Source: a virus
DNA: 64,000 bases
Virus record (IMG/VR): IMGVR_UViG_3300048913_000256
Coordinates: 1 to 64,000 of that record
Direction: 5' to 3' (one strand)
Shown: positions 8,798-50,492 of the stretch, one piece after another
How positions within the stretch are numbered: position 1 is the first letter of the stretch
Layout: the number at the start of each line of letters is the position of its first letter
Made by a program: the position numbers and the translations under genes
The notes under the pieces: model-generated
The model's input: the letters and a program-made list of their open reading frames with translations, nothing else
Told to the model about the DNA's origin: nothing
Databases searched by the model: none

Positions 8798-8827
8798 TAT
8801 CTCGAAGGAGAAGGCGAGGTTGTCCGC
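8798..8827 (-). promoter_or_regulatory. Phage promoter-like motif, copy A (sense GCGGACAACC-N-CGAGATA)
   Basis: Sense strand: gcggacaacctcgccttctccttcgagata, 77 nt upstream of the 8720 start. Confidence 0.6.
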
Positions 8828-8877
8828 TCACTCACGTTCGCAAGAACTTCCCTTCGGTCACGAAGTGCGAGTGAGCG

Positions 8878-8911
8878 CAAAAGAAAAACGCCTCGCGCGG
8901 TGGCGGGCGTT
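8878..8911 (-). terminator. Intrinsic terminator
   Basis: Sense strand: AACGCC-loop-GGCGTT followed by TTTCTTTTG. Confidence 0.55.
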
Positions 8912-8958
8912 ATCCTTGGAACAGTGAGGACAAGAAAGGGAAGTTGCCATCTACAACA

Positions 8959-9171
8959 TCATAAAGACAAAATCAAGACTATTTTTTGACTGAGTGAGGT
9001 ATATAATGAAAAATAGAAAGTGCCGGTGGCAGCCGACACTTCCGCGACAAGTAATTGTCTTTTCTTTCGCTTGAAGCCTACGGGCTTCTTTTTCTCGTTT
9101 TTCAGTAACTTAAAGATTTCTAAAACCTTCGAAATAACTGACAGCAACAGTAGTAAGTAGTCAATATCCAC
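8959..9171 (-). CDS. Small hydrophobic, Lys-rich protein in an AT-rich islet (70 aa)
   Basis: GAGGGGGA + 7 nt + GTG. Sequence MDIDYLLLLLSVISKVLEIFKLLKNEKKK... Visibly low GC. Confidence 0.4.
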   Translation of the reverse strand: MDIDYLLLLLSVISKVLEIFKLLKNEKKKPVGFKRKKRQLLVAEVSAATGTFYFSLYTSLSQKIVLILSL

Positions 9172-9400
9172 TGGCGTATCCCCCTCTCGTATTTATGATA
9201 CAAGATTACGTCACAGGTTAAGTGGGGTCAAGACGCTAGAAGTCTATGAAATATGTACCAGCAGAGCGATAGAACCGAGCTAGTTCTGCGAGAATCGCCT
9301 AGAATCGTCATGGCGGGGGAGAAACGGTTAAGGTATCGTTTGACGCGTGTGCGCCCCGATTCGACCGTAGCTGACGCCCGCAAGATAGGCAATATTACCT

Positions 9401-9441
9401 ATAGAAAAGACGCCTGAGCCATCGCGCCCAAGCGTCTTTTT
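9401..9441 (-). terminator. Intrinsic terminator (A-run and T-run flanked, possibly bidirectional)
   Basis: AAAAGACGC-loop-GCGTCTTTTT. Confidence 0.6.
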
Positions 9442-9443
9442 CG

Positions 9444-9710
9444 TTATGCAACCCGCTGCTGTACGTCCGCTTGCGGTGTCTTCACCGGAAACTCGATGAT
9501 CTGCGCCCCGTCCGCCCGCTCTGCGCAGCGTTCATCGCGACCCAGCAGAATGTAATCGGTGAGCAGCGTCAGTAGCGCCGGCTCCGGTCGGTCCGCGAAC
9601 TCGTCGGTCAGCGCTTGGACTTCGCGGATGCGCTCCTGTGCGGTCAGTTCGGTGCGCGAGATCAGCGTGTTGACGTCGTCTCTGAAGCGTTGTTTGTCGT
9701 TATGCGGCAA
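9444..9710 (-). CDS. Hypothetical protein (88 aa)
   Basis: Clean ORF that overlaps the upstream gene's stop. Confidence 0.6.
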   Translation of the reverse strand: MPHNDKQRFRDDVNTLISRTELTAQERIREVQALTDEFADRPEPALLTLLTDYILLGRDERCAERADGAQIIEFPVKTPQADVQQRVA

Positions 9711-9888
9711 CGGTATCGCCTCCTTTCTCGTCTGACATCGTTGCTAGTTCGAGCCATGCCGCGACCTCCTCGAAGCGCTCGATGATGCGCAGGAGCGTTC
9801 GGGAGCCGTTGCCGGCGTGGTAGGCGATGAGGGCGGCGATGGTGTTGTCCAGTTCAACCACGGCGTCCGCGATCGTCGGTTTCGTCAT
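9700..9888 (-). CDS. Hypothetical protein (62 aa)
   Basis: Its ATG overlaps the methyltransferase stop (ATGA). The track ORF 9700-10149 extends spuriously into the MTase gene. Confidence 0.55.
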   Translation of the reverse strand: MTKPTIADAVVELDNTIAALIAYHAGNGSRTLLRIIERFEEVAAWLELATMSDEKGGDTVAA

Positions 9889-11312
9889 GCTGCGCTCAAC
9901 TCGTTTCTGTTCGATGATTGCGCCGCCAAGACTTGCGCAGATAGCGCGGCGGCGAGGTGGTACGCGACTCGCGAGGCTACTCCGTTCCCAACTACGCGGT
10001 ACATCGCGGATAGAGACATGCCTTCGGGAAATACGTAGGTGTCGGGAACCGATTGGATGCGCAGGCACTCGCGAACCGTGAATCGTCGCGGGGCACTCGT
10101 CGGGTGAATCGGCTGACCGCTGTTGTGGTGCGCTGGAATCGTGTTGCAAGGCGCGTCCATCGACTGTATGCGGTTCGCTTGGTCGTAGGAGTATTCGGAC
10201 TTCGGCGTCCAGTAATCTCCAATCACGGGATTGGCGATTGATGCGCGGACCTTGTCCATCGTTACGCTGCCGTCCGCCGGATGAATCGACGCATCGCGAG
10301 CATTCGTGAGTACCGTATATGCCGCGTCATCCCACGGTACGACGCGGTTTCGCGACAGGTACTGCGAGGAGTAGCGCCCATCTTGCGGGTTACGCTCGTT
10401 CTCAGTCGGTTCCGGTAGATCCCCGATAGCATCGCGCAGCACCGGTCGATACCCGCTCATCTCGAACTCAGAGCTCGGCCACTCGAATTCGAATCCGAGA
10501 TCCTCGCGAATCCCGACGATGAAGACGCGTTCACGTTTCTGCGCTACACCGTAATCCCATGCGTTGAGTACGCGCCAAGTCACGCGGTAGCCAAGTGCCT
10601 CGAATTCCGCGACCAGCGCGTCGAGCGTGTGGCGATGCTTCCTAGTCGTCAGTCCCTTCACGTTTTCGAATAGGAACGCCTTCGGGCGCTTGGCTGCGAT
10701 AATTTCGAGGTAGCGCCATACGAGTTTGCCGCGCTCTCCCGCTTCGCCCGCGCCTTTTCCTGCCGTCGAATAGTCTTGGCACGGCGGTCCGCCAATCACG
10801 AAATCGGCGTCAGGGATCGAGTTGATCGGAATTTGCGTGATATCGCCTTGGACGATGGAGCCAGCGCCGAAGTTGTGCTCGTGAGCGCGACATGCGTTCT
10901 TATCGAAGTCGTTCGCCCAAACGGTCGTGATGCCCGCGTGCTCGACGCCGAGGCGCATCAGACCGCCACCTGCGAAGAGTTCGATAGCGGTCAGACCGTT
11001 CGCAGGGAGGCGCGGGAGTGCGGGGAGTAGCGGTTGGTGAAGCGGGACTACGTTTGACATCGAATCACCTCCGGGGTGTAGTTGACACGTCGCTTTCGCC
11101 ATCGGCGCTGCAAGAACAGTTAAAGCGGGTTCATCCCATCGCATCCGGCGAAGAAACGTTGTTTGACCGCCACCGCTCCCGTATGCCCCGCCCATAAACG
11201 CACGTTGCTCGTCCTCCGACAGACTTCGCCAGTTCCCGCCTGGCGGTATTTTCTGAGCATACGGCGCTTCGTCGTTTCGGACACCATAGCCGACGTGGTT
11301 CGCCGGGATCAC
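9885..11312 (-). CDS. DNA (cytosine-5)-methyltransferase
   Basis: Motifs: I ELFAGGG, IV GGPPCQDYS, VI ENV, VIII QKRERVFIVG, IX RRFTVRECLRIQSVPD, X GNGV. An internal start at ATG 11060 with GGAGGTGA SD is also possible. Confidence 0.9.
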   Translation of the reverse strand: MIPANHVGYGVRNDEAPYAQKIPPGGNWRSLSEDEQRAFMGGAYGSGGGQTTFLRRMRWDEPALTVLAAPMAKATCQLHPGGDSMSNVVPLHQPLLPALPRLPANGLTAIELFAGGGLMRLGVEHAGITTVWANDFDKNACRAHEHNFGAGSIVQGDITQIPINSIPDADFVIGGPPCQDYSTAGKGAGEAGERGKLVWRYLEIIAAKRPKAFLFENVKGLTTRKHRHTLDALVAEFEALGYRVTWRVLNAWDYGVAQKRERVFIVGIREDLGFEFEWPSSEFEMSGYRPVLRDAIGDLPEPTENERNPQDGRYSSQYLSRNRVVPWDDAAYTVLTNARDASIHPADGSVTMDKVRASIANPVIGDYWTPKSEYSYDQANRIQSMDAPCNTIPAHHNSGQPIHPTSAPRRFTVRECLRIQSVPDTYVFPEGMSLSAMYRVVGNGVASRVAYHLAAALSAQVLAAQSSNRNELSAA

Positions 11313-12637: not shown

Positions 12638-13138
12638 CTAATCGTCCCCATTCTCGTAAATTTTCGCTCTCAACCGCTGCCGTCCGAATCTAATCGCCTC
12701 GTCGCGATTCGAGTGTCCGACGTAGATATCGAGATGCCCCGCCGTGATCGCGCCTCCCCGATCCTCCACGATGAACTTGCGAATGGAGCCGTCGGGCATC
12801 GTGAGTTCGACGCGGCTGCCGAATGGAATCGCGCTCCAAGCGGCTACGGTCGTCCATGCGCGAGCTGGCGCTCCGCTTGCGGTGATGTCGTCGCCCCGTT
12901 GATCGCCGTCGATGCCGGTATAGGCGCTGACGTAGGCGGTGCCGTCGAAGATGACGACGGGATATCGCGTGGCGGGAGGTGCGACCTTCTCGACTGAACG
13001 CGAGACAGGCGGTGGAATCGGCGGCCCATGCGCGAAACCTTCGATTAGGTAGCGCGGAATATCGGGTGCGTGCGCTGGAATCGGAACAGCGGCGGATAAG
13101 AGCGTCAGGAGGACGGTGCATAGGCGGAGTAGTCGAAT
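12638..13138 (-). CDS. Secreted 3D-domain (MltA/RlpA-like) protein; absent from the ORF track
   Basis: AAGGAGG + 8 nt + ATT at 13136-13138. Signal peptide IRLLRLCTVLLTLLSAAVPIPAHA. 3D-type motifs GDDITASG...IPFGSRVEL...FIVEDRGGAITAGHLDIYV. Confidence 0.7.
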   Translation of the reverse strand: MRLLRLCTVLLTLLSAAVPIPAHAPDIPRYLIEGFAHGPPIPPPVSRSVEKVAPPATRYPVVIFDGTAYVSAYTGIDGDQRGDDITASGAPARAWTTVAAWSAIPFGSRVELTMPDGSIRKFIVEDRGGAITAGHLDIYVGHSNRDEAIRFGRQRLRAKIYENGDD

Positions 13139-13199
13139 GTGCGTCGCCTCCTTCTTACGGGCGGTCAGCCCTTCGTGGATGTGCGGTTGTTTCGCTATG

Positions 13200-13229
13200 T
13201 ATCTCGCAGGAGGAGGCGCGGTTGTCCGT
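13200..13229 (-). promoter_or_regulatory. Phage promoter-like motif, copy B
   Basis: Sense strand: acggacaaccgcgcctcctcctgcgagata, directly after the terminator at 13234-13269. Confidence 0.6.
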
Positions 13230-14382: not shown

Positions 14383-14553
14383 TTAGTCGCGGTACTTCCA
14401 TGCGTCCGTATCATCGTCCCATTTCGCCGCGACGCGCAGACCGGTTACTTCGGGGTAGTCGTCGGTCACCGTCTTCATCGCTTCTTCAGCGGTGTACGCG
14501 GTCATATCATAATTGAAGCCTACGTCGTCGACGAGAAGATATCGATTATACAT
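14383..14553 (-). CDS. Hypothetical protein (56 aa)
   Basis: Its ATG overlaps the stop of the upstream mini-ORF (TGATG). Sequence MYNRYLLVDDVGFNYD... Confidence 0.5.
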   Translation of the reverse strand: MYNRYLLVDDVGFNYDMTAYTAEEAMKTVTDDYPEVTGLRVAAKWDDDTDAWKYRD

Positions 14554-14721: not shown

Positions 14722-14880
14722 CTATTTGCGATTTTTCTTGCGAGACTTGTTGCGGTTGCCACTTCGTGTGACGCCGCTTCGAGTCTCTTTTCGTTTGGCG
14801 CGGTAGTTCATAATCGCTGTTGCGAGATTTACTACCGATGTAATCACCGTTAGGATTATCGCCAGATGCGCCAAGTCCAC
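14722..14880 (-). CDS. 52-aa membrane peptide with a basic tail; absent from the ORF track
   Basis: GGAGGTG + 8 nt + GTG. Sequence MDLAHLAIILTVITSVVNLATAIMNYRAKRKE... Confidence 0.45.
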   Translation of the reverse strand: MDLAHLAIILTVITSVVNLATAIMNYRAKRKETRSGVTRSGNRNKSRKKNRK

Positions 14881-14988
14881 TCGTTGCTCACCTCCTCTGT
14901 GTCTTTATTATACCGCGCTTATCGGTGTACGTCAACACCTTTTAACGCGGTATTTTTCGTGGTATACTGAGGTCGAGGTGATACGAAA

Positions 14989-17787: not shown

Positions 17788-17837
17788 GCCCCACCCCGCG
17801 AAACGTCGAAGGGCGGGCGTGTTTTGGTTTCATCGTG

Positions 17838-17867
17838 AATCTCGCGTGGAGTTGCGAGGTTGTCCGC
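17838..17867 (-). promoter_or_regulatory. Phage promoter-like motif, copy C
   Basis: Sense strand: gcggacaacctcgcaactccacgcgagatt, abutting the RNR stop codon. Confidence 0.55.
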
Positions 17868-20360: not shown

Positions 20361-20424
20361 ATGACCATCTCCCTCGTTGTTGTTCGAAAATAAAAGCGCA
20401 AGCTCGCGCCCGCGCTGCGTTACC

Positions 20425-20454
20425 TATCTCATTGTGTGCGTCGCGAATGTCCGC
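20425..20454 (-). promoter_or_regulatory. Phage promoter-like motif, copy E
   Basis: Sense strand: gcggacattcgcgacgcacacaatgagata, upstream of the RNR start. Confidence 0.5.
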
Positions 20455-21353: not shown

Positions 21354-21414
21354 TACTCGATTCCTTTGCGCGCTGTCAACGTGGGCGTTGCGCCTTTCAT
21401 CGTCTTTCTCGCAG

Positions 21415-21552
21415 TTAGGATCGCTTCTGTCCGCCCACCCGTGTCAGTTCCGCCAGCCCCGCGACAAGCGCCACACACACACCAACCGCGACCCCTGCGA
21501 CAGCGAACGCTAGGACTACGACGGCGGCGAAACATTCGATGGCGCGGCGCAT
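21415..21552 (-). CDS. 45-aa hydrophobic peptide; absent from the ORF track
   Basis: The ATG follows the upstream TAA directly. Sequence MRRAIECFAAVVVLAFAVAGVAVGVCVALVAGLAELTRVGGQKRS. The Arg-rich track ORF 21353-21535 is the wrong frame. Confidence 0.45.
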   Translation of the reverse strand: MRRAIECFAAVVVLAFAVAGVAVGVCVALVAGLAELTRVGGQKRS

Positions 21553-25384: not shown

Positions 25385-25418
25385 GAATCGTTCCCCTTCC
25401 GCTATGTGTTTCGCTATC

Positions 25419-25448
25419 TATCTCGCAGGCTCTACGCGGCTTGTCCGC
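25419..25448 (-). promoter_or_regulatory. Phage promoter-like motif, copy F
   Basis: Sense strand: gcggacaagccgcgtagagcctgcgagata. The extended downstream match to copy B is ...gagataNatagcgaaac. Confidence 0.6.
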
Positions 25449-30723: not shown

Positions 30724-30907
30724 CAAATCGTCCCCTTCGATATGGTTTTTTGGTTCAGCGGCACGAATCGCTATGGTGTCGTGAATGACGCACAACCCGC
30801 GCCGCTGGTCGGTGACGGTTCGCTCTGACGCATCAATCGGGAACGGCGGCTCATACGTCCACCGTAGCGTCGCTATCCCTTCGCGCGAACCGTCGACCTT
30901 CGGAATG

Positions 30908-30937
30908 TATCTCGCGGAATAGGCGAAGGTTGTCCGC
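30908..30937 (-). promoter_or_regulatory. Phage promoter-like motif, copy D
   Basis: Sense strand: gcggacaaccttcgcctattccgcgagata. Confidence 0.55.
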
Positions 30938-37762: not shown

Positions 37763-37831
37763 CGTCTATCATCCTCTCAATCGCAAGTCGCGCTGTATGG
37801 CGTCTAGTAGCCTCGCAGTGCGTTCGTAGAC

Positions 37832-37861
37832 TATCTCGGCACTCATTGGTCGGATGTCCGC
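37832..37861 (-). promoter_or_regulatory. Phage promoter-like motif, copy G
   Basis: Sense strand: gcggacatccgaccaatgagtgccgagata, 70 nt upstream of the 37762 start. Confidence 0.55.
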
Positions 37862-38903: not shown

Positions 38904-39133
38904 GCGCCTTCACCGCCTGCCTCGTAGAACAGAACGATGGAACCGCGGTCATGCTCTTGGATCGAAACGATCTGCGCGCGAGTGATGCGATGAGCGGCGA
39001 TGTAATCGTTGAGTTGGTCGATGGTGTCGCGTGCGTTGGGATCGAGCTTAAACGGCTCGTCGTAGTTATAGCCGCCACCTTCGGCACGGAAATAGACCGG
39101 CGGATGGAAAATGATGCGCTTGATTTCGTTCAT
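38900..39133 (-). CDS. Hypothetical protein (77 aa)
   Basis: GAGGAGG SD. First gene after promoter-like motif H. Confidence 0.55.
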   Translation of the reverse strand: MNEIKRIIFHPPVYFRAEGGGYNYDEPFKLDPNARDTIDQLNDYIAAHRITRAQIVSIQEHDRGSIVLFYEAGGEGA

Positions 39134-39164
39134 GGGCGTTCCTCCTCGTTTGGGTATCGTAGGA

Positions 39165-39194
39165 GAACTCGCGGGAGGTGGCGCGGGTGTCCGA
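39165..39194 (-). promoter_or_regulatory. Phage promoter-like motif, copy H (degenerate)
   Basis: Sense strand: tcggacacccgcgccacctcccgcgagttc, directly after the terminator at 39200-39233. Confidence 0.4.
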
Positions 39195-40138: not shown

Positions 40139-41458
40139 TTACGCTAGATTCGTTTGGTCAGGTAAAAGCTTGAAACGCGGAAACTCTCGCCGTTCAACGT
40201 CATTCGGGCGCAACTCCTCGACACGCTCGAGCAGCTCCGTAAGTGCCGCGATTCCAGTCGCTATGGCGACGACATACTGCTCGTATCCTTCACGCGATAG
40301 CCGCTTGCAGTCTTTCGCAAGTTCCGTGTAGGTTGCGATCTGAGCGATGTATCCAGCGAACTGAATTGATCCTCCGATGAAGACGCTAGACTCACGGAGT
40401 TCGGTGATCTCGAGGTCCCTCCGTTCGATTTCTTCGAGAAGTCGCGCGCGTTCGGCGTCATTGGCGGCGTTATCGAGTTGATTGCTGAGATTCGATCTCT
40501 CGTCGATGAGGCGGTCAATTTTCGCATCCCTCTCCTTGACCTCGTTACCCTTCTCGACGATCTCCTCGTTGAGTTCGCGTACGATGCGCTTGGCGTCGTT
40601 AAGTTCACTTTCGAGGTATTTGATGCGCTGCACGTCCTCGGGCGATCGCTCACCTACCGGTTTCTGGCGCGCCATCGTGAGGTCGCGGTTCAGCTCGTCG
40701 ACTGTGTTGCGAGATTGCGTGAGCTGGCGCGTGAGATCCTCGATCGTGGCGGCGTTGCGCGATGCAGCGTCTTGTGCGGTCTTTACTTTGTCGTCCATTT
40801 CGGCGCGGATCTTCTTCGCCTCGGCGACGGTGACTTTCTTCGTGTACTCGCGGATACCGTCATAGGCGCGTTGCTGCGCTTCAGGCGAGAGACAAGCGAA
40901 CTCGTACGCAGCGGTTGCGTTGAGTTCGCCTTTCTCGACCATGAGTTCGAGCGGGCGGATGAGTTCGTTGAGTTTGTCCAGTTTATCTACCATAGAGCCG
41001 GATACGCCCACCTCATTAGCGACGATGTCTCGCGTATTCCCTTTTAACTCCTGTGAATTATTATCAGGAGTCGTGTCGAGATCCGAGCGTTTCCCCTGAC
41101 GGTTTCCGATCAATTGCTTCTTGCGTCGAATCGCCTTCGCCATTTCCATATGGGTAAGCGTCCTAGTCCGCGTGTTCGCGTCGATCAGCGCTTCCTCGGC
41201 CTCACTCGCATCACGGAACTCTCGAATAATGCACGGAACCTCGTCCCACTCAAGAATACGCGCCGCTCTCGTACGCTGGTGTCCAGAGATGATCGTGAAG
41301 GACACGCCGTCGCGGATTACGACAACCGGATGTTGCATCCCGAGAGACTCGATACTTCCCGCCAATTCACCGAGTTCCTCTTCGTCAAGTGTGCGGAAAA
41401 AGTTGCGCGGGTGCTCTTTCAGTTGCTCTATCGGAATCATCGTGATCTTTTCGCTCAT
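40139..41458 (-). CDS. ParB-like nuclease-domain protein with a long coiled coil
   Basis: IPIEQLKEHPRNFFR...IISGHQRTRAA (ParB N-terminal domain). GGGAGGA SD before ATG 41458. Confidence 0.7.
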   Translation of the reverse strand: MSEKITMIPIEQLKEHPRNFFRTLDEEELGELAGSIESLGMQHPVVVIRDGVSFTIISGHQRTRAARILEWDEVPCIIREFRDASEAEEALIDANTRTRTLTHMEMAKAIRRKKQLIGNRQGKRSDLDTTPDNNSQELKGNTRDIVANEVGVSGSMVDKLDKLNELIRPLELMVEKGELNATAAYEFACLSPEAQQRAYDGIREYTKKVTVAEAKKIRAEMDDKVKTAQDAASRNAATIEDLTRQLTQSRNTVDELNRDLTMARQKPVGERSPEDVQRIKYLESELNDAKRIVRELNEEIVEKGNEVKERDAKIDRLIDERSNLSNQLDNAANDAERARLLEEIERRDLEITELRESSVFIGGSIQFAGYIAQIATYTELAKDCKRLSREGYEQYVVAIATGIAALTELLERVEELRPNDVERREFPRFKLLPDQTNLA

Positions 41459-41471: not shown

Positions 41472-42071
41472 CTATCGCGCCACGCGGCTCGTGTGCTTCG
41501 ATTTTTCACGCAGATACTGTTGGTGGTTCTTGAACAGCTCAGGCGCTAGGTTCACGACTTCACGCGATGAGAGTTCGAGATCCGCATCCGTACGATAGAG
41601 CGCTCTTTGCTCGGCGGTAAGACCGGGATTGCGTGCGGATACGCCGGTGAAGTGCTCACGAACTTCCTCGCGAAGTTCGAACAGACGCTCCTCTGAAGCT
41701 TCAAACGGGAGGGCTGCGTCGCCGATCGCCTCTACGCGGCCGTCGAGCGACTCCGAGTGCTCACGATCCTTCTTCCCTTTGTCGAGGAGATCGTAGACTC
41801 GCGAAGTGACTGCGCGGGTAAGTACTTTGATGAACGGTCCCTTGTCAGCGGAAGTGTATCGGCGGACCTCGTTCCAGACAGCCTCGAGATAAGCGGATTC
41901 GATGTCGCACGGATCAAGCGATTTGAATTTCGAGAAGGTTGCGAACGTTTTCGCCTTATGCTCGTCTAACTTCGCGATGAGCCGGTTAAACTGAGAATCA
42001 TCGGAACGTGTGAGGCCGCGATTTGCTGCGAGTGCCAGAGCGGTGATCGTTGCAGAGTTTGCGTTTTTCAT
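41472..42071 (-). CDS. Putative ECF-sized sigma-70-family factor (early regulator)
   Basis: Region-2-like IESAYLEAVWNEVRRY...FIKVLTRAVTSRVYDLL and region-4-like LTAEQRALYRTDADLELSSREVVNL. First gene of the leftward operon leaving the immunity region. Confidence 0.4.
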   Translation of the reverse strand: MKNANSATITALALAANRGLTRSDDSQFNRLIAKLDEHKAKTFATFSKFKSLDPCDIESAYLEAVWNEVRRYTSADKGPFIKVLTRAVTSRVYDLLDKGKKDREHSESLDGRVEAIGDAALPFEASEERLFELREEVREHFTGVSARNPGLTAEQRALYRTDADLELSSREVVNLAPELFKNHQQYLREKSKHTSRVAR

Positions 42072-42281
42072 TCGGGATCATCTCCTGATTTTCGGAATGG
42101 TAACTAATTCCCATTTCTCGAAAGGAGGCGACTCTTGCGAAAGTTAGACCGATTATTTGAAAATAGAACGTTAGTTCGCTTTAATGCAATCGGCAACTAT
42201 CGTAAGATGTAAGTAGTGTCACGCCATTGACATTCAGTGTCAGTCCGTTGTACATTTGACTTAACACAACTAGAATAAAAT

Positions 42282-42477
42282 GGCCAGACATCGCCTCACC
42301 ATCGAGATACCTGTTACGTGAGCCTCGCAACCGATCGCCAAATCGATGCGCAGCGTCTCAGGGCGGAGCCAATCGCCCGAGAATTACCGTGTGTCCCAAC
42401 CAACTAAAGATTCGTGATCGTGCCGCCAAGCACGTTTCACAACAGCAAAGGGCGCGGGTGCAACCGTGTCCTTTTTT
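42282..42477 (+). ncRNA. Candidate structured small RNA in the immunity intergenic region
   Basis: A GC-normal islet in AT-rich DNA with no ORF. It has a weak GGCCAGA-N14-CGAGATA motif at its 5' side, several hairpins, and a terminator hairpin at 42450-42471 followed by T6. Confidence 0.25.
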
Positions 42478-42739
42478 CGTTTTACTAGCAACGCGCCAAC
42501 GCACTATGTAAAACGATATTTCGTTTAACTATTACTATTGATAGACTAATAATACAGTATCGGAAATATTCGAGCAATAGCGAAACATGTCGAAACAAGT
42601 TCACAATACTCCTTATTACTAGAATACTTGGAAACTTCTACGAGTGTCAATCGTATTATACTAGATTCATACAATGTAAGAATAAAGACGCACGTGATAT
42701 AGTTTTACTATTAGACGTTTTTGGAAAGAGGTTGATAAC

Positions 42740-43051
42740 ATGGGGAACTTTCGCGTCAAAGGTGAGGAGATTCGGAAATTACGAGAGGTCATTGGGTGGA
42801 CAGGTGGTGAATTAGCAGAACGTGTCGGGACACACATGCAAGTGCTATATAGAATAGAGCAAGGTAGAGAGAAGCCCTCTATGTCTCTATTAACCGATTT
42901 TGCAAGAGCACTTGGAGTTCCTGTCTCGGAGTTGATTGAAGTTGAGCAAACATCGTCGATGGGATTCTTGCGATCTGGCCCTATCGTGATGGATATTCCT
43001 CCTGAGTTAGTAGAGCCTTTTATAGCAATTGTAAGATCGCATAAGAAGTGA
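42740..43051 (+). CDS. XRE-family HTH repressor-like protein (103 aa)
   Basis: ELAERVGTHMQVLYRIEQGREKPSMSLLTDFARALGV. Divergent from the early leftward operon. Confidence 0.75.
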   Translation: MGNFRVKGEEIRKLREVIGWTGGELAERVGTHMQVLYRIEQGREKPSMSLLTDFARALGVPVSELIEVEQTSSMGFLRSGPIVMDIPPELVEPFIAIVRSHKK

Positions 43052-44361: not shown

Positions 44362-44393
44362 AAACCACGATCCGCTATGGACGTGGTTTTTTT
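44359..44393. terminator. Bidirectional terminator between the receptor gene and the peptide gene
   Basis: AAAAACCACG-loop-CGTGGTTTTTTT. Confidence 0.75.
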
Positions 44394-44404
44394 GATTCTC
44401 CCTT

Positions 44405-44578
44405 TTATACTGTATATGATCCGGGAAGCGGTGGTTGCCAATCAGCTACTTTATCGCTCTGGTACGCACCCGGAAGCGGCGGTTGATACTCGGATACCTT
44501 CGCAACCTCTACGCCACCGGCCGCCACTAGCGCCACCAGCGCGATCCCCGCCATCCATCGTTTCATTTTCGTCATCAT
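44405..44578 (-). CDS. 57-aa secreted pro-peptide with a tandem QPPLPG(A/S)Y repeat; absent from the ORF track
   Basis: GGGGGA + 8 nt + ATGATG. Sequence MMTKMKRWMAGIALVALVAAGGVEVAKVSEYQPPLPGAYQSDKVADWQPPLPGSYTV. TATAAT (sense) at 44621-44626. Confidence 0.6.
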   Translation of the reverse strand: MMTKMKRWMAGIALVALVAAGGVEVAKVSEYQPPLPGAYQSDKVADWQPPLPGSYTV

Positions 44579-44776
44579 CGTTCCATTCCCCCATTTAACG
44601 TGTTATCATTCCCCACGCTCATTATAGCGCATCTGAGCGCGATCCGCCTTTACTTCTTCGTTAAATTCGCGCTAATACGTCCCAATAAAAGACGCCTCCC
44701 TTCGCGGTTATCCTCGCCAGTCCTGCGCGATCTGTCCGCGTTGTGAGGCGTCGTGCTTCCGACATCGTGCTATAGG

Positions 44777-46679: not shown

Positions 46680-46684
46680 AGCGT

Positions 46685-47734
46685 CTACTCCGCCGTAACT
46701 GGCGATTCTGCACGCCCCAAGAACAGCCCGTAGCGATAGAATCCGACCGCGTTCGCTTCTTGTGCGTTCTCAACAACGACGATATCCGGGTGCCACCCGC
46801 GGAGAACCTCGACGATTTGCGGGATTGCTGCACCGCCGCCGGTCAGCAGGATCTTATCGAACTTGGCGCGATCCTTCCAGCGGGCGTTGATTGCCGTTTT
46901 GACGCGACCTGCGAGGTTACGGAACGCCGTATCGACAATCTCGGTGATGTCGACCTTGTAGTTGTTGTTTACGATATAGCGAATGGCGTTGGTACCGGCG
47001 AGCTGTTTCTTGACGCGCGGGGCAGACGCTTTGATTGCCGCGTCCTTCGCGTTAAGCCAGTTCGCGATTTCTTGATAGACCGTGTTGATGCCGAGATCAA
47101 ACGTATCAGTGTCAAGTGGTTCGCGCAAGAGTTCCTTTATGCCGTCAATGTCCGTCGTTCCGGATCCGATGTCGATTACGCCAATATAGCCAAACTCGTA
47201 AGAATCATCGGCGACATACCCGTCTTCGTCGAGGTAGCACGCCAATACGGAGCCAAGCGGCTGCGGCAGTACCTGAACGTCGGTCACGTTGAGCATCTTC
47301 TGGCCGCCCTCGACGTCGATGTAGTGCGCTCCCTTGTAAACCGCGATGATATCGTTCTCAAGCGGAGTTTTGATCTCGTTAGAAGGAACGCCAGTGATGA
47401 TGCGAACCTCAACGATACCGTCCGGCGCGAGCGCAGCCAGAATCGCCTCGGAGAGGATTTGATATTCACGTTGTTTGTAGCGGTCAACTGTCGCGAGTGT
47501 GGCGATCGGGTTCGCTACCTTGTGGATCTCGTCGCCCCACACGATAGACTCGTTGGTGCGCCCAACTTTATAGGTACGCAGGGACGGCGAGCCGGTGCCG
47601 CCCCCGATCGCGATTACTTCTTGCGGGACATCGCCCGGAAGCGCGTACTCGCTAGGGCGCAGAATCGTCGCATGTTTGGAAATCGCCTTTACATAGCCGT
47701 TGCCGTGATCGATACCCATCGCCAATTTCGTCAT
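46685..47734 (-). CDS. parM: Actin-like segregation ATPase (ParM/Alp family)
   Basis: Phosphate-1 GIDHGNGYVKA, phosphate-2 VIDIGSGTTDI, adenosine LLTGGGAA. ATG at 47734 follows GGAGG. Confidence 0.8.
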   Translation of the reverse strand: MTKLAMGIDHGNGYVKAISKHATILRPSEYALPGDVPQEVIAIGGGTGSPSLRTYKVGRTNESIVWGDEIHKVANPIATLATVDRYKQREYQILSEAILAALAPDGIVEVRIITGVPSNEIKTPLENDIIAVYKGAHYIDVEGGQKMLNVTDVQVLPQPLGSVLACYLDEDGYVADDSYEFGYIGVIDIGSGTTDIDGIKELLREPLDTDTFDLGINTVYQEIANWLNAKDAAIKASAPRVKKQLAGTNAIRYIVNNNYKVDITEIVDTAFRNLAGRVKTAINARWKDRAKFDKILLTGGGAAIPQIVEVLRGWHPDIVVVENAQEANAVGFYRYGLFLGRAESPVTAE

Positions 47735-47888
47735 GAGTCGAAAACCTCCGTTTTTGTATGCGGTTTTATATAAAACTGCGGGTGATAAGTACATCATAGC
47801 GCGGTTGGGCGGATTTGGCAATAGTATACGCGTTCTCAATATGGCACTTTTATATAGAACTTCATTGGTTGGAGTTTTTGGCGTATCT

Positions 47889-47975
47889 TGTGGATTTTGT
47901 GGATAAAGTCGATGTTATCCACAACTCAATTTTAATCGCCGTCTCGATATTCGCATTCCCTTGCGGATATCCACA
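47889..47975. promoter_or_regulatory. DnaA-box cluster (putative origin or centromere-proximal region)
   Basis: TGTGGATTT at 47889, TGTGGATAA at 47898 (perfect), TTATCCACA at 47915 (perfect), ATATCCACA at 47967. An AT-rich tract lies just to the left. Confidence 0.6.
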
Positions 47976-48303
47976 GCTCGTGGTAATGTAGAAGCAATAC
48001 AATCTACCAAAATTCGACTATCACCAAAATTACATAGAGTACGTTCAGACCACGCACTTCGTGTTTTGCGCCAACAGAACATGAAAAAGGGTTCCTCCGC
48101 CAAGAGGAACCCCGTGGTTGCACCGAAACCGTCGAAAGAAGCGGTGCACAAGACATCAAACTGTTACCCTTATTGTAGCCAAATTCCGGCTTATAATCAA
48201 GGGGTTACGGCACATTTAACGAGCCTTCTCGTTGGATTAGAGCCGATCTTGTGCGACTACGTCCTTCTGACGGTAATCGTGCGGATCGGCTCTTTTGCGT
48301 ATC

Positions 48304-48333
48304 TCGGACAACACCGCCCATTAGCGCGAGATC
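48304..48333 (+). promoter_or_regulatory. Phage promoter-like motif, copy I (plus strand)
   Basis: tcggacaacaccgcccattagcgcgagatc, 40 nt upstream of ATG 48374. Confidence 0.55.
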
Positions 48334-48373
48334 TCCGACGACTACGTATATCCACGAGGAGGCTTATTCCGTT

Positions 48374-49579
48374 ATGGCTACTATCGAACAAGTGGCGCAT
48401 CTCCAGTCGTTCCCGTCAGTCGAGGCGATGGATGCGCATCTCCAACGTTTCTTCACGCTGTCCAAGCACCAACTCAGCGACACCCGTCGCAAGGTTCTCG
48501 AATACATGCAGACTCGCGCCGTCAAGGTCGTCGGTGTATGCAACGCAAAGGTGCGCACGATCGCGGCGGCCGTCGGTTGCAGCACGCGAACCGTCCAGCG
48601 AGCGATAGACTTCGCGGTTGACTGCGGCCTGATTCGCGAGGAGCTTCGGTGGCACGAGAACGGCGCACAGGCGTCGACCGTGTACGTTTTTCAGAACGAA
48701 TTGTCAGGAGGGTTGTCACCCTCCCCTGTCACCCCATATACGCTTTTAGATCTTTCACACTCTTCTGCTACACCAAAACCTACAGAGGTAATCGTAAACG
48801 ACGTCCGCGACTGCGATTCGAAATTTGATTCGATGACTTTTATTCCGAGCTACATCCCGAGAAACTTCGCCTATCACGCACATCTCTACTTCGGCGATCC
48901 GGTTGAAGTTACCGCACTTTGGCGAGCTGCGGTCGAAGGGTTCCGAGTACTCGGCGAGAAGGTCGACGCTGTTTTCGCTTGTGGCGCACTCACCGACGCG
49001 ATCGTCAGCAAGCAGTACAAAGACGAGAAGGGCGAACCGGTCCGCAACTTCCGCTCGTTCTTTAAGGGCGCGCTCATCCGCATTTTCCGCCGGTTGGAAG
49101 AGAACGAGGCGGTGCGCCAGCAGAACGCGGAGAACGCCCCTATCCGCCAGTTTGCACAGAAGTCTGCCGTCCCAAACGTAAGCACCGACGCGCTTGACGA
49201 ACTCCTGCGTATGAAAGCCGCCGCACTCGAATCAGATCCGCAAGCGGACGAACCTGTCGTGCAACCATCCGCAGACGACCGCGAGGATGCGCTCATCGCC
49301 GAAACCCTACGTTCCGAAACGCACCACACCGCGCGCGCAAAATGGATCGATGTCCTTTCCGCTGCCGCCGTGCAAGTCTCGCCAAGCGCATATCAGCGCT
49401 GGTGGTCGCAGTCACGCGGGGTCGCGGAGGTTGACGGAAAGTTGATCGTGGCAGTAGATACGGAGATGGAGCGCGGTTGGTTGGAGACATACGCGAGAAC
49501 AATTGCGGAATTAGCGCAGCAACCGGTCCGTATCGTCGTCTCCTCTACCGCTCCCCTTTCGACAACGACGGCAGGCTGA
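48374..49579 (+). CDS. Rep-like winged-helix protein (candidate plasmid-mode initiator)
   Basis: GAGGAGG SD. wHTH segment RKVLEYMQTRAVKVVGVCNAKVRTIAAAVGCSTRTVQRAIDFAVDCGLI. Adjacent to the DnaA boxes. Confidence 0.5.
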   Translation: MATIEQVAHLQSFPSVEAMDAHLQRFFTLSKHQLSDTRRKVLEYMQTRAVKVVGVCNAKVRTIAAAVGCSTRTVQRAIDFAVDCGLIREELRWHENGAQASTVYVFQNELSGGLSPSPVTPYTLLDLSHSSATPKPTEVIVNDVRDCDSKFDSMTFIPSYIPRNFAYHAHLYFGDPVEVTALWRAAVEGFRVLGEKVDAVFACGALTDAIVSKQYKDEKGEPVRNFRSFFKGALIRIFRRLEENEAVRQQNAENAPIRQFAQKSAVPNVSTDALDELLRMKAAALESDPQADEPVVQPSADDREDALIAETLRSETHHTARAKWIDVLSAAAVQVSPSAYQRWWSQSRGVAEVDGKLIVAVDTEMERGWLETYARTIAELAQQPVRIVVSSTAPLSTTTAG

Positions 49580-50303
49580 CGCGGAACTCGTTCTGCAACG
49601 GGTATCTGCGTGTATCGACCGACTGGTACCGTGGCTCTTGCGTCTCCTCCGCAACCGGTGCGCCGAGGTAGCGCCCGACCGCATCCTTGACCGTCACTAG
49701 CGAGTTTGCGCATTCTTCCGCCAGATACGCCACCAGCGCGCTCACCGATATGTGGAATCCCGCGTCGTTCTCCGCTTCGATTGCGCGTAGCAACGTGGCA
49801 AGAGTCCGTCTGCGATCTGGCGTGAGTTCCGCTGCGGCCGATTTCGTGACGAGGCGCAGAACGTGTTTGCGGCTGTGTAGCGTAGTTGTCAGGACGAGTC
49901 CGTGCGCAGCCGATCGTGAGCATTTCAGTGCGAACGCATATCCGTCGAGGATGTCGATGACCGGCGCGAGATAACGCCCGCTTGGGCGCTCTGTCGGCGA
50001 TCCAAACATCGGCTTGTAGGCCGAACCCCGCGCGTTTCCGAAATAGGCTGCGTTGGTCAGCGTGATCGGACGGCAGAAATACGCCGAAACCGCGCGCTCG
50101 ATGTCCGCCGATGCGAGACCTTCGAGGACCAGCGCTTGGACAACGTCCTTGATCGGCTTGCCGCAGATGAACGCGAGCATCGAAATCATTTCGCAGTCGG
50201 TCGCTAGAATCGTTGAGCGGATCTCCGTCGTCTTATCGCTTCTTGTCTTGCGATTTTTGTGCGCCTCTCCCCCGCTTCTTCTCATCGCTAAAACCGCCTC
50301 CAC
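49545..50303 (-). CDS. Hypothetical protein (252 aa) with three RHH-like repeats by eye
   Basis: Clean ORF, convergent with the Rep-like gene and overlapping it by 35 nt. Confidence 0.5.
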   Translation of the reverse strand: MEAVLAMRRSGGEAHKNRKTRSDKTTEIRSTILATDCEMISMLAFICGKPIKDVVQALVLEGLASADIERAVSAYFCRPITLTNAAYFGNARGSAYKPMFGSPTERPSGRYLAPVIDILDGYAFALKCSRSAAHGLVLTTTLHSRKHVLRLVTKSAAAELTPDRRRTLATLLRAIEAENDAGFHISVSALVAYLAEECANSLVTVKDAVGRYLGAPVAEETQEPRYQSVDTRRYPLQNEFRVSLPSLSKGER

Positions 50304-50462
50304 TCTCGAAATTAGGTTCGCGACGATGTCGGAGTGTCGCGAGGATATTCGAGTGTATGCGATAGGGTAGGCGAGTCAGAACGCTTTACGACACTTCGAC
50401 GGTGTCGCGGGCTTCGTACGGACAATCGAGCACGTTGGCGCGTGTTTAACCTTTCGGATGTT

Positions 50463-50492
50463 TGGCAAAACTCGTATGTAGAATGCGAGATT
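50463..50492 (+). promoter_or_regulatory. Phage promoter-like motif, copy J (weak -35)
   Basis: tggcaaaactcgtatgtagaatgcgagatt, 20 nt before ATG 50513. Confidence 0.3.

What the first reader, a model, noticed from the sequence alone, without database searches (positions are those of the whole stretch)
8798..50492. Roughly ten copies of a non-sigma-A promoter-like motif, CGGACA-N17-GAGATA, punctuate the early/middle genes on both strands
A 30-nt motif recurs with fixed geometry and is always in sense orientation relative to the next gene. Minus-strand copies lie at 8798, 13200, 17838, 20425, 25419, 30908, 37832 and 39165. Plus-strand copies lie at 48304 and, weaker, 50463 and 42282.

The sense consensus is gCGGACAaCc-N12-(c/t)GCGAGATa. 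That corresponds to a -35-like CGGACA, a 17-nt spacer, and a -10-like GAGATA.

All copies are intergenic or at gene ends. Several sit directly after an intrinsic terminator (8878, 13234, 39200), so they read as operon restart points. The hexamers differ from TTGACA/TATAAT but keep sigma-70-type spacing, which argues for a dedicated (phage-encoded or alternative host) sigma specificity. I do not recognise this consensus as a described promoter class.
Basis: seen in the sequence. Interest (0 to 1): 0.75.

Follow-up and report, generated by a model that had tools for sequence, protein, structure and literature searches.

The report
Phage sigma factor and its promoters
A temperate phage-plasmid of a soil Bacillales host carries about a dozen copies of an unusual promoter (CGGACA-N15-GCGAGATA) in front of its replication, nucleotide-metabolism and late-regulator genes, and its first lytic gene encodes a very diverged, unannotated ECF-type sigma factor that most likely reads them: a new example of a known strategy, not a new kind of system.

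Summary
CGGACA-N17-GAGATA occurs 19 times at up to 2 mismatches (5.5±2.3 expected), with 6 exact copies. A 42-nt matrix finds 10 strong copies (32-50 bits; random sequence reaches 19 at most). The motif has three blocks: CGGACA, 15 nt, gCGAGAta, 4 nt, aCGAAac. Every copy lies 31-80 nt upstream of a same-strand start codon, and about half follow a terminator.

The core recurs at orthologous intergenic sites in every locus encoding a homologue of the 199-aa protein (41472-42071), down to about 28% identity and including a three-gene cassette in Tumebacillus lipolyticus. It occurs 28 times in 140 kb of these loci and never in 130 kb of controls. That protein has no Pfam or PHROG hit, but its family matches sigma70-ECF models (E=1e-9), aligns collinearly with RpoE (E=1.7e-4), and its model retrieves mainly sigma factors.

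A conserved LexA-type box upstream suggests SOS induction. The closest described analogues are SigN of pBS32 and Xpf of PBSX; the protein is not a SigN homologue and the consensus differs. No transcription starts were mapped. Verdict: new member of a known kind, moderate interest.

The parts
41472..42071 (-). Gene for sigma-199, a 199-aa diverged ECF-like (sigma2-linker-sigma4) sigma factor. It is the first gene of the leftward early operon and the proposed reader of the motif.
   Evidence: No Pfam or PHROG hit for the protein itself. The family has 12 cluster representatives. Sigma70_r2 is the Pfam family hit by the most members (4 of 12, best E=0.0027). All top-25 NCBIfam families hit by members are sigma models, with TIGR02937 at E=1e-9. 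hhalign against RpoE gives E=1.7e-4 over 147 collinear columns. The AF2 model has pLDDT 79. The Foldseek lists are dominated by sigma factors.
39153..39194 (-). Motif copy P1 (CGGACA...GCGAGTTC). It follows the terminator that ends the early operon and lies 31 nt upstream of the 77-aa gene 38900-39133.
   Evidence: PWM score 41.7 bits.
37820..37861 (-). Motif copy P2, upstream of 37298-37762 and the loader, helicase and primase block.
   Evidence: PWM score 31.9 bits.
30896..30937 (-). Motif copy P3, after the primase gene and upstream of the block ending in DNA polymerase A (25815-28817). It overlaps only the SD-less longest-ORF start of 29968-30945.
   Evidence: PWM score 40.7 bits.
25407..25448 (-). 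Motif copy P4, 34 nt upstream of 24884-25384.
   Evidence: PWM score 39.2 bits.
21393..21434 (-).
   Evidence: PWM score 37.7 bits.
20413..20454 (-). Motif copy P6, 64 nt upstream of the class II ribonucleotide reductase gene 17868-20360.
   Evidence: PWM score 32.9 bits.
17826..17867 (-). Motif copy P7. It starts at the stop codon of the RNR gene and lies upstream of the dUTPase and ThyX block. An orthologous copy follows RNR in L004.
   Evidence: PWM score 45.3 bits.
13188..13229 (-). Motif copy P8. It follows a hairpin plus T9 terminator and lies 78 nt upstream of 12690-13121, ahead of the block that contains the DNA methyltransferase 9885-11312.
   Evidence: PWM score 50.1 bits.
8786..8827 (-). 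Motif copy P9, 77 nt upstream of 8448-8720. It drives the gene of the sigma4-like 310-aa protein.
   Evidence: PWM score 48.6 bits.
48304..48345 (+). Motif copy P10, the only strong plus-strand copy. It lies after a hairpin and T-run, 40 nt upstream of the HTH_36 replication-initiator-like gene 48374-49579. Orthologous copies exist in L001 and L128.
   Evidence: PWM score 34.2 bits.
5865..5906 (-). Weak copy (TGGACA-N15-GCGAGAGA). It lies after a terminator, 40 nt upstream of an 86-aa gene (ATG 5836) and terS (4935-5342). It is a candidate late-operon promoter.
   Evidence: PWM score 18 bits.
44709..44737 (-). Degenerate copy (CGGACA-N15-GCGAGGAT) upstream of the 57-aa gene 44405-44578 beside the TPR-HTH gene. 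Orthologous copies exist in L001, L002, L005 and L128.
42281..42309 (+). Weak copy (TGGCCA-N15-TCGAGATA) in the divergent control region. It points away from the sigma gene and is followed by terminator 42447-42474, which predicts a small RNA of about 150 nt.
50463..50492 (+). Weak copy with a degenerate -35 (TGGCAA) and a perfect GCGAGATT, upstream of the 52-aa plus-strand gene 50513-50671.
   Evidence: L003 gene call.
42165..42178 (.). LexA (Cheo)-type box aGAAC-N4-GTTCg, about 95-107 nt upstream of the sigma-199 start codon.
   Evidence: GAAC-N4-GTTC lies 56-108 nt upstream of the sigma gene in 5 of 7 loci, against a background of 0.05 per kb.
42621..42650 (-). Best sigmaA-type hexamer pair on the minus strand of the control region (TTGACA-18-TATTCT). 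It is a candidate host-sigma promoter for the early operon.
   Evidence: This is a consensus match only.
40139..41458 (-). ParB N-terminal-domain protein. It directly follows the sigma gene in the window, L001 and L005, and probably in L002 (partial 154-aa ORF, no Pfam look-up).
7325..8257 (-). A 310-aa protein with an N-terminal sigma region-4-like HTH only. It is expressed from copy P9, lies upstream of terS, terL and portal, and is a probable late-gene activator.
   Evidence: phrog_3512 'sigma factor', E=1.9e-7, residues 1-112. No Pfam hit. Only a 28-column region-4 stretch aligns to the sigma-199 family. Orphan in the homologue search.

Best explanation
The motif is the promoter class of a phage-encoded alternative sigma factor. 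The element is a temperate siphovirus-type phage-plasmid of about 68 kb from a Bacillales host, probably in or near Alicyclobacillaceae.

Proposed mechanism. In the lysogen, the leftward early operon (sigma-199, a ParB-like protein and an ORF6C protein) is kept off at host sigmaA-type promoters in the low-GC control region at 42.1-42.7 kb, by LexA and/or the divergently encoded XRE and HTH-TPR regulators. On induction, sigma-199 is made and binds host core RNA polymerase. Its sigma4 helix (invariant N182, Q184, R188) reads CGGACA as a -35 element, and its sigma2 domain reads gCGAGAta as a -10 element 15 nt downstream. Transcription then starts in or just after the purine-rich third block, 6-11 nt further on.

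This switches on about ten transcription units, many of which restart after intrinsic terminators. They cover the replication initiator, helicase loader, helicase and primase, DNA polymerase, RNR, dUTPase and ThyX, a DNA methyltransferase, and the gene of a sigma4-like protein that probably activates the terS-to-lysis late operon.

Shown here: the motif, its placement, its conservation, its co-occurrence with the protein family, and the sigma-family homology and fold of the protein. Inferred: that sigma-199 binds core RNA polymerase and these sites, the position of the transcription start, the role of LexA, and the late step.
For: Motif statistics and placement.

The element is a phage with plasmid-maintenance genes: tape measure, tail proteins, terminase, portal, DNA polymerase A, RNR, ParB and an Alp7A/ParM-like actin. 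No phage RNA polymerase was found in any large ORF.

Conservation at orthologous sites:
- after RNR and at the end of the DNA polymerase gene in L004;
- before the replication-initiator gene in L001 and L128;
- after ParB in L001 and L005;
- before the small gene beside TPR-HTH in L001, L002, L005, L128 and the window;
- in the divergent control region in the window, L001, L006 and L128.

Specific association: the strict pattern [CT]GGAC[AG]-N15-NCGAGA occurs 28 times in 140 kb of family loci and 0 times in 130 kb of controls. The controls include GC-matched relatives L130 and L131, which have the same gene order and 58-62% identical DNA polymerase but a different sigma-like gene. In the Tumebacillus lipolyticus chromosome, the only two copies in 20 kb flank the TPR-HTH / sigma / ParB cassette.

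Sigma identity of the protein. The family's few invariant residues sit in the C-terminal recognition helix, which matches the invariance of CGGACA.

Cascade logic: there is no motif copy between the control region and the end of the early operon. The first copy comes directly after that operon's terminator. SigmaA-type hexamers cluster in the control region.
Against: No transcription start sites, RNA polymerase binding or expression data exist for this element.

The window's own protein does not reach significance against any curated sigma model (best E=0.08). Its assignment rests on transitive profile links, an hhalign probability of only 50%, and Foldseek hits that are individually non-significant (best E=0.12 in PDB and 0.03 in BFVD).

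The motif does not co-vary with the protein across the family. It is simply conserved, so the pairing is by association.

Other DNA-binding proteins always or often travel with the sigma: ParB-like, XRE and HTH-TPR. A second, sigma4-like protein is also encoded in the window.

Conservation of a third block around the expected start site is unusual for sigma-dependent promoters and is unexplained. The matrix scores are inflated because the matrix was trained on the same copies.
Confidence: 0.7

Rival explanations
1. The sites are promoters, but another phage-encoded DNA-binding protein recognises them and recruits host sigmaA holoenzyme, or acts together with sigma-199. Candidates are the sigma4-like 310-aa protein (7325-8257), the TbsP-like HTH protein (37909-38853) and the ParB-like protein (40139-41458).
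For: The 310-aa protein hits a PHROG 'sigma factor' family. The ParB-like gene directly follows the sigma gene in the window, L001 and L005, and probably in L002, so co-occurrence cannot fully separate the two. The spacer shows a loose CGC(G) bias complementary to the GCG of the -10 block, which could hint at a dimeric binder.
Against: The 310-aa protein has only a region-4-like HTH and no sigma2 domain. It is itself behind a motif copy (8798), which creates a bootstrapping problem, and no homologue of it was detectable. The Tumebacillus cassette keeps two motif copies with no phage genes nearby apart from TPR-HTH, sigma and ParB. The motif is asymmetric, strictly oriented and at a fixed distance from genes, unlike palindromic parS or operator sites. 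GAGATA is a poor sigmaA -10 because it lacks T at the last position. L128 keeps three motif copies, but the genes called after its sigma gene are a 56-aa and a partial 100-aa ORF, and ParB is not visible in the stretch held.
Confidence: 0.13
2. The sites are promoters for a host alternative sigma factor (an ECF or SigI-type sigma of the Bacillales host) that the phage exploits. The 199-aa protein would then do something else, for example act as an anti-sigma decoy or as a regulator.
For: The geometry (GGAC-type -35, about 16 nt, CGA-type -10) resembles ECF and SigI promoter architecture as I recall it. Bacillales encode many such sigmas. Family members score against SigI and ECF models, so a host paralogue could share the specificity.
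Against: The motif follows the sigma-199 gene across elements from different samples, and it is absent from GC-matched relatives with the same gene order but a different sigma-like gene. In 20 kb of Tumebacillus chromosome it occurs only at the cassette. The protein has both sigma2-like and sigma4-like parts with a conserved recognition helix.
Confidence: 0.1
3. The motif is not a promoter. It would instead act as an RNA or DNA structural element, such as a processing site, an antitermination site, a hairpin promoter for a virion polymerase, or a recombination or replication site.
For: The conservation extends downstream of the '-10' into what would be transcribed sequence. Some copies can form a short CTCGC...GCGAG stem.
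Against: Folding the 11 copies gives z-scores from -1.8 to +1.3 and a different structure for each copy. The stem partner is not at a fixed position, and one relative has a loop of 1 nt. No RNA polymerase gene is present. The fixed 15-nt spacing of two blocks and the 31-80 nt distance to start codons that follow ribosome-binding sites are promoter properties.
Confidence: 0.04

Closest known systems
SigN (ZpdN) of Bacillus subtilis plasmid pBS32 and its SigN-dependent promoters (Burton et al. 2019, PMC6751061)
   Same: Both are sigma factors of 199 aa that are only weakly ECF-like. Both are encoded on a low-copy element that carries a siphovirus-type prophage, an actin-like partition system and a replication initiator. 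SigN sits behind a SigA-dependent, LexA-repressed promoter. It drives an element-restricted regulon of replication and nucleotide-metabolism genes from about ten promoters with a non-sigmaA consensus. Here, a LexA-type box is conserved upstream of the sigma gene, and the regulon has the same functional content. The -10 regions share AGATA.
   Different: There is no detectable homology beyond the sigma-70 superfamily: BLASTP finds nothing, and hhalign aligns 39 columns at E=0.02. The SigN consensus is about TTTACG-N13-AGATA(T/A)AA, as I read it from Table 2 of PMC6751061, against CGGACA-N18-AGATA here. SigN autoactivates from PsigN3, whereas here no sense copy precedes the sigma gene and the control-region copy points the other way. 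The SigN regulon is reported not to include the prophage structural region. Here the regulon includes the gene of a probable late activator and a weak copy before terS. XRE and HTH-TPR regulators are additional here.
Xpf (Pcf), the positive control factor of the defective prophage PBSX of B. subtilis, under the Xre repressor
   Same: Xpf is a prophage-encoded group IV (sigma2 + sigma4) sigma of about 20 kDa that acts as a positive control factor after DNA damage (PMC10141391, Table 1). From my own knowledge of McDonnell et al. 1994, which is not held in the library, its expression is controlled by an XRE-family repressor and it turns on the late operon. Here an XRE-family gene (42740-43051) lies divergent to the sigma gene.
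   Different: Homology to Xpf was not tested because I had no sequence to hand. Xpf is described as controlling a single late operon. Here about ten promoters cover the middle genes, and the late step seems to be delegated to another protein.
Classical phage sigma cascades: SPO1 gp28 and gp33/34, T4 gp55, phiEco32 gp36 (from my own knowledge)
   Same: In each case a phage-encoded sigma redirects host core RNA polymerase to phage promoters with a consensus unlike the host's, which produces temporal classes.
   Different: Those are virulent phages, and their sigma proteins and consensus sequences are unrelated (for example AGGAGA-N17-TTTNTTT for gp28 and CGTTAGA-N18-GATATT for gp33/34). Here the sigma is the induction switch of a temperate phage-plasmid. 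No homology was tested.
ECF (group IV) sigma factors such as E. coli RpoE
   Same: The two-domain sigma2-linker-sigma4 architecture is shared. The profile alignment to RpoE residues 14-164 is collinear. TIGR02937 hits occur in family members. The promoter geometry pairs a GGAC/GGAAC-type -35 with a CG-containing -10 about 16 nt away.
   Different: There is no adjacent anti-sigma factor and no autoregulatory promoter. The window's protein is below the threshold of every curated model. The -10 is GCGAGATA, not CGTC-like.

Membership tests
Sigma-70 family, group IV (ECF-like) sigma factors | Sequence homology of the N-terminal domain to sigma region 2 (core binding and -10 recognition) | tested here: met
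   This is met at family level. Sigma70_r2 is the Pfam family hit by the most members (4 of 12, best E=0.0027). TIGR02937 sigma70-ECF reaches E=1e-9, SigI models reach E=2.7e-6, and all 25 top NCBIfam families are sigma models. hhalign against RpoE aligns family columns 20-97 to RpoE 14-87. The window's own protein alone is sub-threshold (best E=0.08).
Sigma-70 family, group IV (ECF-like) sigma factors | C-terminal region 4 helix-turn-helix (-35 recognition) | tested here: met
   The hhalign alignment continues collinearly through RpoE 135-164, with ...R...GLS..Ei.... The AF2 model has C-terminal helices 153-165, 169-175 and 183-193 at pLDDT 81-89. The family-invariant residues N182, Q184 and R188 lie in the last helix.
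Sigma-70 family, group IV (ECF-like) sigma factors | Fold similarity to solved sigma structures | tested here: inconclusive
   No Foldseek hit has E<=0.001. Even so, about 30 of 50 PDB hits are sigma factors, and the isolated SigC sigma2 domain (2o7g) matches at TMt 0.76 and rmsd 2.7 A. BFVD hits are mostly phage sigma factors, one with probability 1.00 and rmsd 2.6 A over 96 columns. Global TM-scores are low, as expected for two flexibly linked domains.
Sigma-70 family, group IV (ECF-like) sigma factors | Binds core RNA polymerase and directs promoter-specific initiation | not testable with these tools
   This needs in vitro transcription or a pull-down with core RNA polymerase.
Sigma-70 family, group IV (ECF-like) sigma factors | Co-encoded anti-sigma factor and autoregulatory promoter (typical of ECF sigmas, not universal) | tested here: not met
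   The downstream neighbour is a ParB-like protein. No motif copy in sense orientation lies upstream of the sigma gene, and the control-region copy is divergent.
Sigma-70-type bipartite promoter | Two conserved blocks at a fixed spacing of about 17 nt, oriented toward and shortly upstream of genes | tested here: met
   The spacer between CGGACA and GCGAGA is exactly 15 nt (17 nt between the hexamers) in the correctly registered copies from 7 loci (26 of the 28 rows; two rows were mis-set by 2 nt). All window copies are in sense orientation, 31-80 nt from a start codon.
Sigma-70-type bipartite promoter | Transcription start 5-9 nt downstream of the -10 element | not testable with these tools
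   No transcriptome or 5'-end data are available for this element.
SigN family (pBS32) | Protein homology to SigN | tested here: not met
   BLASTP gives no alignment. hhalign of the family against SigN aligns 39 columns at E=0.02 and probability 2.4%, which is weaker than the match to RpoE.
SigN family (pBS32) | Promoter consensus of about TTTACG-N13-AGATAWAA | tested here: not met
   Compared with the Table 2 sequences of PMC6751061, only AGATA is shared. The -35 element and the spacing differ.
SigN family (pBS32) | LexA-repressed primary promoter | tested here: inconclusive
   A GAAC-N4-GTTC box lies 56-108 nt upstream of the sigma gene in 5 of 7 loci, against a background of 0.05 per kb. 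LexA binding and the promoter itself are not shown.
Promoters of phage single-subunit or virion RNA polymerases (T7-like, N4-like) | The phage encodes its own RNA polymerase, and the promoter is a contiguous block of about 20 nt or a hairpin | tested here: not met
   No RNA polymerase was found among the ORFs scanned. The motif is bipartite with a variable spacer. No significant hairpin forms.

The most novel reading that the evidence does not exclude
The conserved module (TPR-HTH and XRE regulators, divergent LexA-boxed sigma-199, then a ParB-like protein) is more than a sigma-plus-promoters switch. The ParB-like CTPase clamp that almost always follows the sigma would work with it at the motif promoters, as a DNA-loaded co-activator in the manner of the T4 gp45 clamp with gp55. 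The sigma-dependent small RNA of about 150 nt, made from the divergent control-region copy and antisense to the sigma mRNA leader, would close a feedback loop that sets the lysis-lysogeny decision. The same module would have been domesticated as a free-standing three-gene cassette in the Tumebacillus chromosome.
Probability: 0.08. Interest if true: 0.75.

Novelty: new member of a known kind. Interest (0 to 1): 0.5.

Why it matters
It pairs a previously unannotated, very rare sigma-factor family (12 cluster representatives found: 3 clusters among 5.8 billion non-redundant proteins, plus 9 more distant ones in a library of 1.84 billion representatives) with an explicit promoter consensus and a defined regulon. 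The pairing can be tested directly with a reporter fusion or an in vitro transcription assay.

It extends the SigN/Xpf paradigm, in which an SOS-triggered, element-encoded ECF-like sigma acts as the master switch of a prophage or plasmid. The new case is a distinct protein family in a different branch of Bacillales, which suggests that this design has arisen or diversified repeatedly.

It assigns a function to a 'hypothetical protein' and gives transcription-unit boundaries for an uncharacterised phage-plasmid lineage. A sigma and promoter pair that is orthogonal to host sigmaA could also serve as a genetic part for Gram-positive hosts.

Tried and rejected
1. Bacterial chromosome. Two ORFs of 1399 and 1285 aa looked like rpoC and rpoB. 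Pfam and PHROGs show a tail protein and a tape measure protein.
2. Close relatives among isolated phages. Megablast finds none, and the best DNA polymerase match is 37% (Paenibacillus phage Tripp).
3. Scan of IMG/VR with CGGACA-N15-GCGAGATA. It returned only single chance hits in unrelated contigs.
4. Hairpin or RNA element. The fold z-scores are not significant and the structures are inconsistent.
5. Phage-encoded RNA polymerase. None was found.
6. A second full sigma after the primase, as in the Brevibacillus relative L130. The only window protein resembling the L130 sigma is sigma-199 itself.
7. A distinct recurring dyad motif in L130 and L131. A simple exact-dyad count found none in 3 or more intergenic regions. 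This is not an exhaustive test.
8. The 310-aa protein as the reader of the motif. It has a region-4-like HTH only, and its homologue search returned only itself.
9. SigN homology. Not supported.
10. Literature search by hexamer. It returned only primer sequences.
11. Plasmid database. There is no sigma-199 match, and the DNA polymerase matches belong to the distant Tripp-like lineage.
12. First AF2 model from a 3-sequence alignment. It was too poor (pLDDT 55) and was replaced by a 12-sequence model.
13. Rfam on the control region. No match.

Full report
**What the window is.** The window is 57% GC, and nearly all genes lie on the minus strand. It is a siphovirus-type phage, not a chromosome. 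It encodes a tape measure protein (57971-61828), tail proteins (52215-57544), an amidase, terS, terL and portal (4935-5342, 1780-3678, 211-1554), family A DNA polymerase (25815-28817), class II RNR (17868-20360), dUTPase, ThyX, primase, a DnaB-like helicase and its loader, and a DNA methyltransferase. It also carries plasmid-maintenance genes: an Alp7A/ParM-like actin (46685-47734), a ParB-domain protein (40139-41458) and an HTH_36 replication-initiator-like gene (48374-49579). A low-GC control region holds an XRE gene (42740-43051) and an HTH+TPR gene (43108-44361). The source contig is 68,410 bp, so the late operon probably runs off the left end of the window and continues from the right end.

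No isolated phage is close: megablast finds nothing, and the best DNA polymerase match is 37%. DNA polymerase relatives at 55-67% identity are common in Paenibacillus, Brevibacillus, Bacillus and Cohnella assemblies, often on contigs of about 60 kb.

**The observation.** CGGACA-N17-GAGATA gives 19 hits at up to 2 mismatches, against 5.5±2.3 in shuffles. Six hits are exact, all on the minus strand. Aligning the copies shows three conserved blocks: gCGGACAaCC, then gCGAGATa 15 nt after CGGACA, then aCGAAac 4 nt further on. A 42-nt matrix scores ten copies at 32-50 bits (8786, 13188, 17826, 20413, 21393, 25407, 30896, 37820 and 39153 on the minus strand; 48304 on the plus strand) and one at 18 bits (5865). 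Markov-1 random sequences never exceed 19 bits. The matrix was trained on those ten copies, so the gap is somewhat inflated.

A degenerate copy also lies at 44709-44737.

Ten of the eleven matrix hits lie entirely in the roughly 14% of the window that is non-coding. All are in sense orientation, 31-80 nt upstream of a start codon preceded by a GGAGG-type ribosome-binding site. For three copies I corrected the start calls by eye: 5836, 13121 and 30861. Copies 5877, 13200, 39165 and 48305 have a stable hairpin plus T-run ending 12-30 nt upstream, and copy 8798 has a T-run about 60 nt upstream.

**Not an RNA or hairpin element.** Folding the eleven copies gives z-scores between -1.8 and +1.3 and a different structure each time. 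The loose CGC(G) bias in the spacer is not at a fixed register. No phage RNA polymerase gene is present.

**The 199-aa protein.** It has no Pfam or PHROG hit and no PDB sequence hit. A word-indexed search of 5.8 billion proteins finds only itself and two 49% relatives. A full profile search of 1.84 billion representatives adds nine more distant members. The following evidence comes from the 12-sequence alignment.
- Sigma70_r2 is the Pfam family hit by the most members (4 of 12, best E=0.0027).
- ECF sigma SigK appears in the PDB profile search over region 2 (E=0.11).
- All 25 top NCBIfam families are sigma-factor models: TIGR02937 sigma70-ECF at E=1e-9, SigI models at E=2.7e-6, plus SigK, SigY, BldN and RpoE-like models.
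- hhalign against E. coli RpoE gives a collinear 147-column alignment across both domains, at E=1.7e-4 and probability 50%. I recalled the RpoE sequence from memory and verified it against 1or7_A at E=4e-122.

The AF2 model (pLDDT 79) has an N-terminal helical bundle, a lower-confidence linker and a C-terminal three-helix unit. Foldseek gives no individually significant hit. However, about 30 of the 50 PDB hits are sigma factors, including SigC sigma2 at TMt 0.76 and rmsd 2.7 Å, and the BFVD hits are mostly phage sigma factors. The few invariant residues of the family (N182, Q184, R188) lie in the last helix, which is where a sigma4 recognition helix would be. I conclude that this is a strongly diverged group IV-like sigma. 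The window's own sequence is assigned only through these transitive links.

**Association of motif and protein.** I fetched loci encoding family members.
- **L001** (49% identical protein, 59-kb contig) has copies after ParB, before two downstream genes, before the divergently oriented replication-initiator gene, and before the small gene beside TPR-HTH.
- **L004** (a relative with 67% identical DNA polymerase) has copies at the end of the DNA polymerase gene and directly after RNR.
- **L128** (only about 28% identical protein) keeps GCGGACA-N17-GAGA(A/T)C before the replication-initiator gene, before the small gene, and in the control region.
- **L005/L129** is a three-gene cassette (TPR-HTH, sigma, ParB) among housekeeping genes in the chromosome of Tumebacillus lipolyticus. 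The only two copies in 20 kb lie at the two orthologous positions.

The strict pattern [CT]GGAC[AG]-N15-NCGAGA occurs 28 times in 140 kb of such loci and never in 130 kb of controls. The controls are the GC-matched relatives L130 and L131, which have the same gene order and a different sigma-like gene after the primase, and pBS32. The motif is conserved across the family and does not co-vary with the protein, so the link is by association and by the conserved recognition helix.

**A second candidate.** The 310-aa protein at 7325-8257 hits a PHROG 'sigma factor' family over residues 1-112. It has no Pfam hit, no detectable homologue, and only a region-4-like HTH stretch in common with sigma-199. 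It lies behind copy 8798 and just upstream of terS, which is the usual position of late activators in Gram-positive phages (my own knowledge). I read it as the late activator, not the reader of the motif.

**Cascade and induction.** There are no motif copies between the control region and the end of the early operon, and the first copy follows that operon's terminator. The best sigmaA-type hexamers cluster at 42.2-43.1 kb. A GAAC-N4-GTTC box lies 56-108 nt upstream of the sigma gene in 5 of 7 loci, against a background of 0.05 per kb. This suggests SOS control.

**Comparison with known systems.** The closest described system is SigN of pBS32. SigN is a 199-aa, weakly ECF-like sigma on a prophage-bearing plasmid that has an actin-like partition system. 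It is LexA-repressed and drives replication and nucleotide-metabolism genes from promoters of about TTTACG-N13-AGATAWAA (PMC6751061). Sigma-199 is not its homologue beyond the superfamily, and the consensus shares only AGATA. SigN is autoregulated, and sigma-199 seems not to be. Xpf of PBSX is another precedent, as a group IV prophage sigma (PMC10141391).

**Verdict.** It is a new sigma family and a new promoter consensus within a known strategy. Transcription starts and biochemical proof are missing.

Noticed in passing
window 42281-42481 (+); also L128 about 9060-9241 (-), L006 36-212 (-), L001 about 9713-10004 (-): The weak motif copy in the divergent control region is followed 170-280 nt later by a strong intrinsic terminator (dG -17 to -20 kcal/mol, T5-7) in all four loci, before the XRE gene. 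This predicts a sigma-dependent small RNA of about 135-250 nt with a shared TCGCCAAA(AA)TCG box. It would be antisense to the sigma mRNA leader if that mRNA starts at the sigmaA-like promoter at 42621-42650(-). There is no Rfam match.
   Followed up: partly
window 42165-42178; L002, L005, L006, L128 upstream of the sigma gene: A LexA (Cheo)-type box GAAC-N4-GTTC lies 56-108 nt upstream of the sigma-199 start codon in 5 of 7 loci, against a background of 0.05 per kb. A conserved TTCTACGATAG-like stretch lies about 30 nt upstream of it. This suggests SOS induction.
   Followed up: partly
L005 / L129 (Tumebacillus lipolyticus KCTC 32289, NZ_JBHUIO010000002.1, 547.8-568.4 kb): A free-standing cassette (small gene, TPR-HTH, divergent sigma-199 homologue, ParB-like gene, terminator, 71-aa gene) sits among housekeeping genes, with motif copies at both ends. 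It is either a prophage remnant or a domesticated regulatory module.
   Followed up: partly
window 43108-44361 (+), 44377-44598 (+), GC dip at 42-44 kb: A 417-aa HTH_3 + TPR regulator with RNPP/AimR-like architecture lies in a 44.7% GC island, followed by a small plus-strand ORF. It could be a peptide-signalling (arbitrium-like) lysis-lysogeny input.
   Followed up: no
window 20395-20416 (-): A 9-bp GC-rich hairpin followed by TTTATTTT lies only about 10 nt downstream of motif copy 20425, inside the 64-nt leader of the class II RNR gene. It could be an attenuator or a 5' stabilising stem-loop.
   Followed up: no
spacers of motif copies, e.g. window 8805-8815, 13207-13216, 39172-39180; L001 14169, L002 3351: Many spacers contain a pyrimidine tract with CCTCC (anti-Shine-Dalgarno-like) and a loose CGC(G) complementary to the GCG of the -10 block. 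Whether this reflects a spacer contact, a second regulator, or masking of the ribosome-binding site in read-through transcripts is unknown.
   Followed up: partly
window 7325-8257 (-): A 310-aa orphan protein has an N-terminal sigma region-4-like HTH (phrog_3512, E=1.9e-7) and an uncharacterised C-terminal 200 aa. It lies just upstream of terS and is a probable late activator.
   Followed up: partly
window 3802-4410 (+): A short (202-aa) Phage_integrase-family gene sits on the opposite strand, wedged between terL and terS. This is an odd place for a recombinase in an element that otherwise looks plasmid-maintained.
   Followed up: no
window 14907-14935 (-): This is the best sigmaA-type promoter match in the middle region (TTGACG-17-TATAAT, 11 of 12). 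It lies in front of small ORFs 14722-14880 and 14383-14553, which might be host-sigma-expressed (moron-like) genes inside the sigma-199 regulon.
   Followed up: no
L130 5113-5715 (Brevibacillus sp. NL20B1) and L131 5257-5814 (Paenibacillus dendritiformis): Related elements of about 60-80 kb, with 58-62% identical DNA polymerase, carry a different small sigma-like gene (weak Sigma70_r2 hit in L130) after the primase and divergent HTH genes, and they lack the motif. This suggests that different sigma and promoter pairs have been swapped within this phage-plasmid group.
   Followed up: partly
window 41863-41891 (+): A 1-mismatch match to the two-hexamer pattern lies antisense inside the sigma-199 ORF. 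It lacks the extended blocks and scores below the matrix threshold, so it is probably chance.
   Followed up: yes
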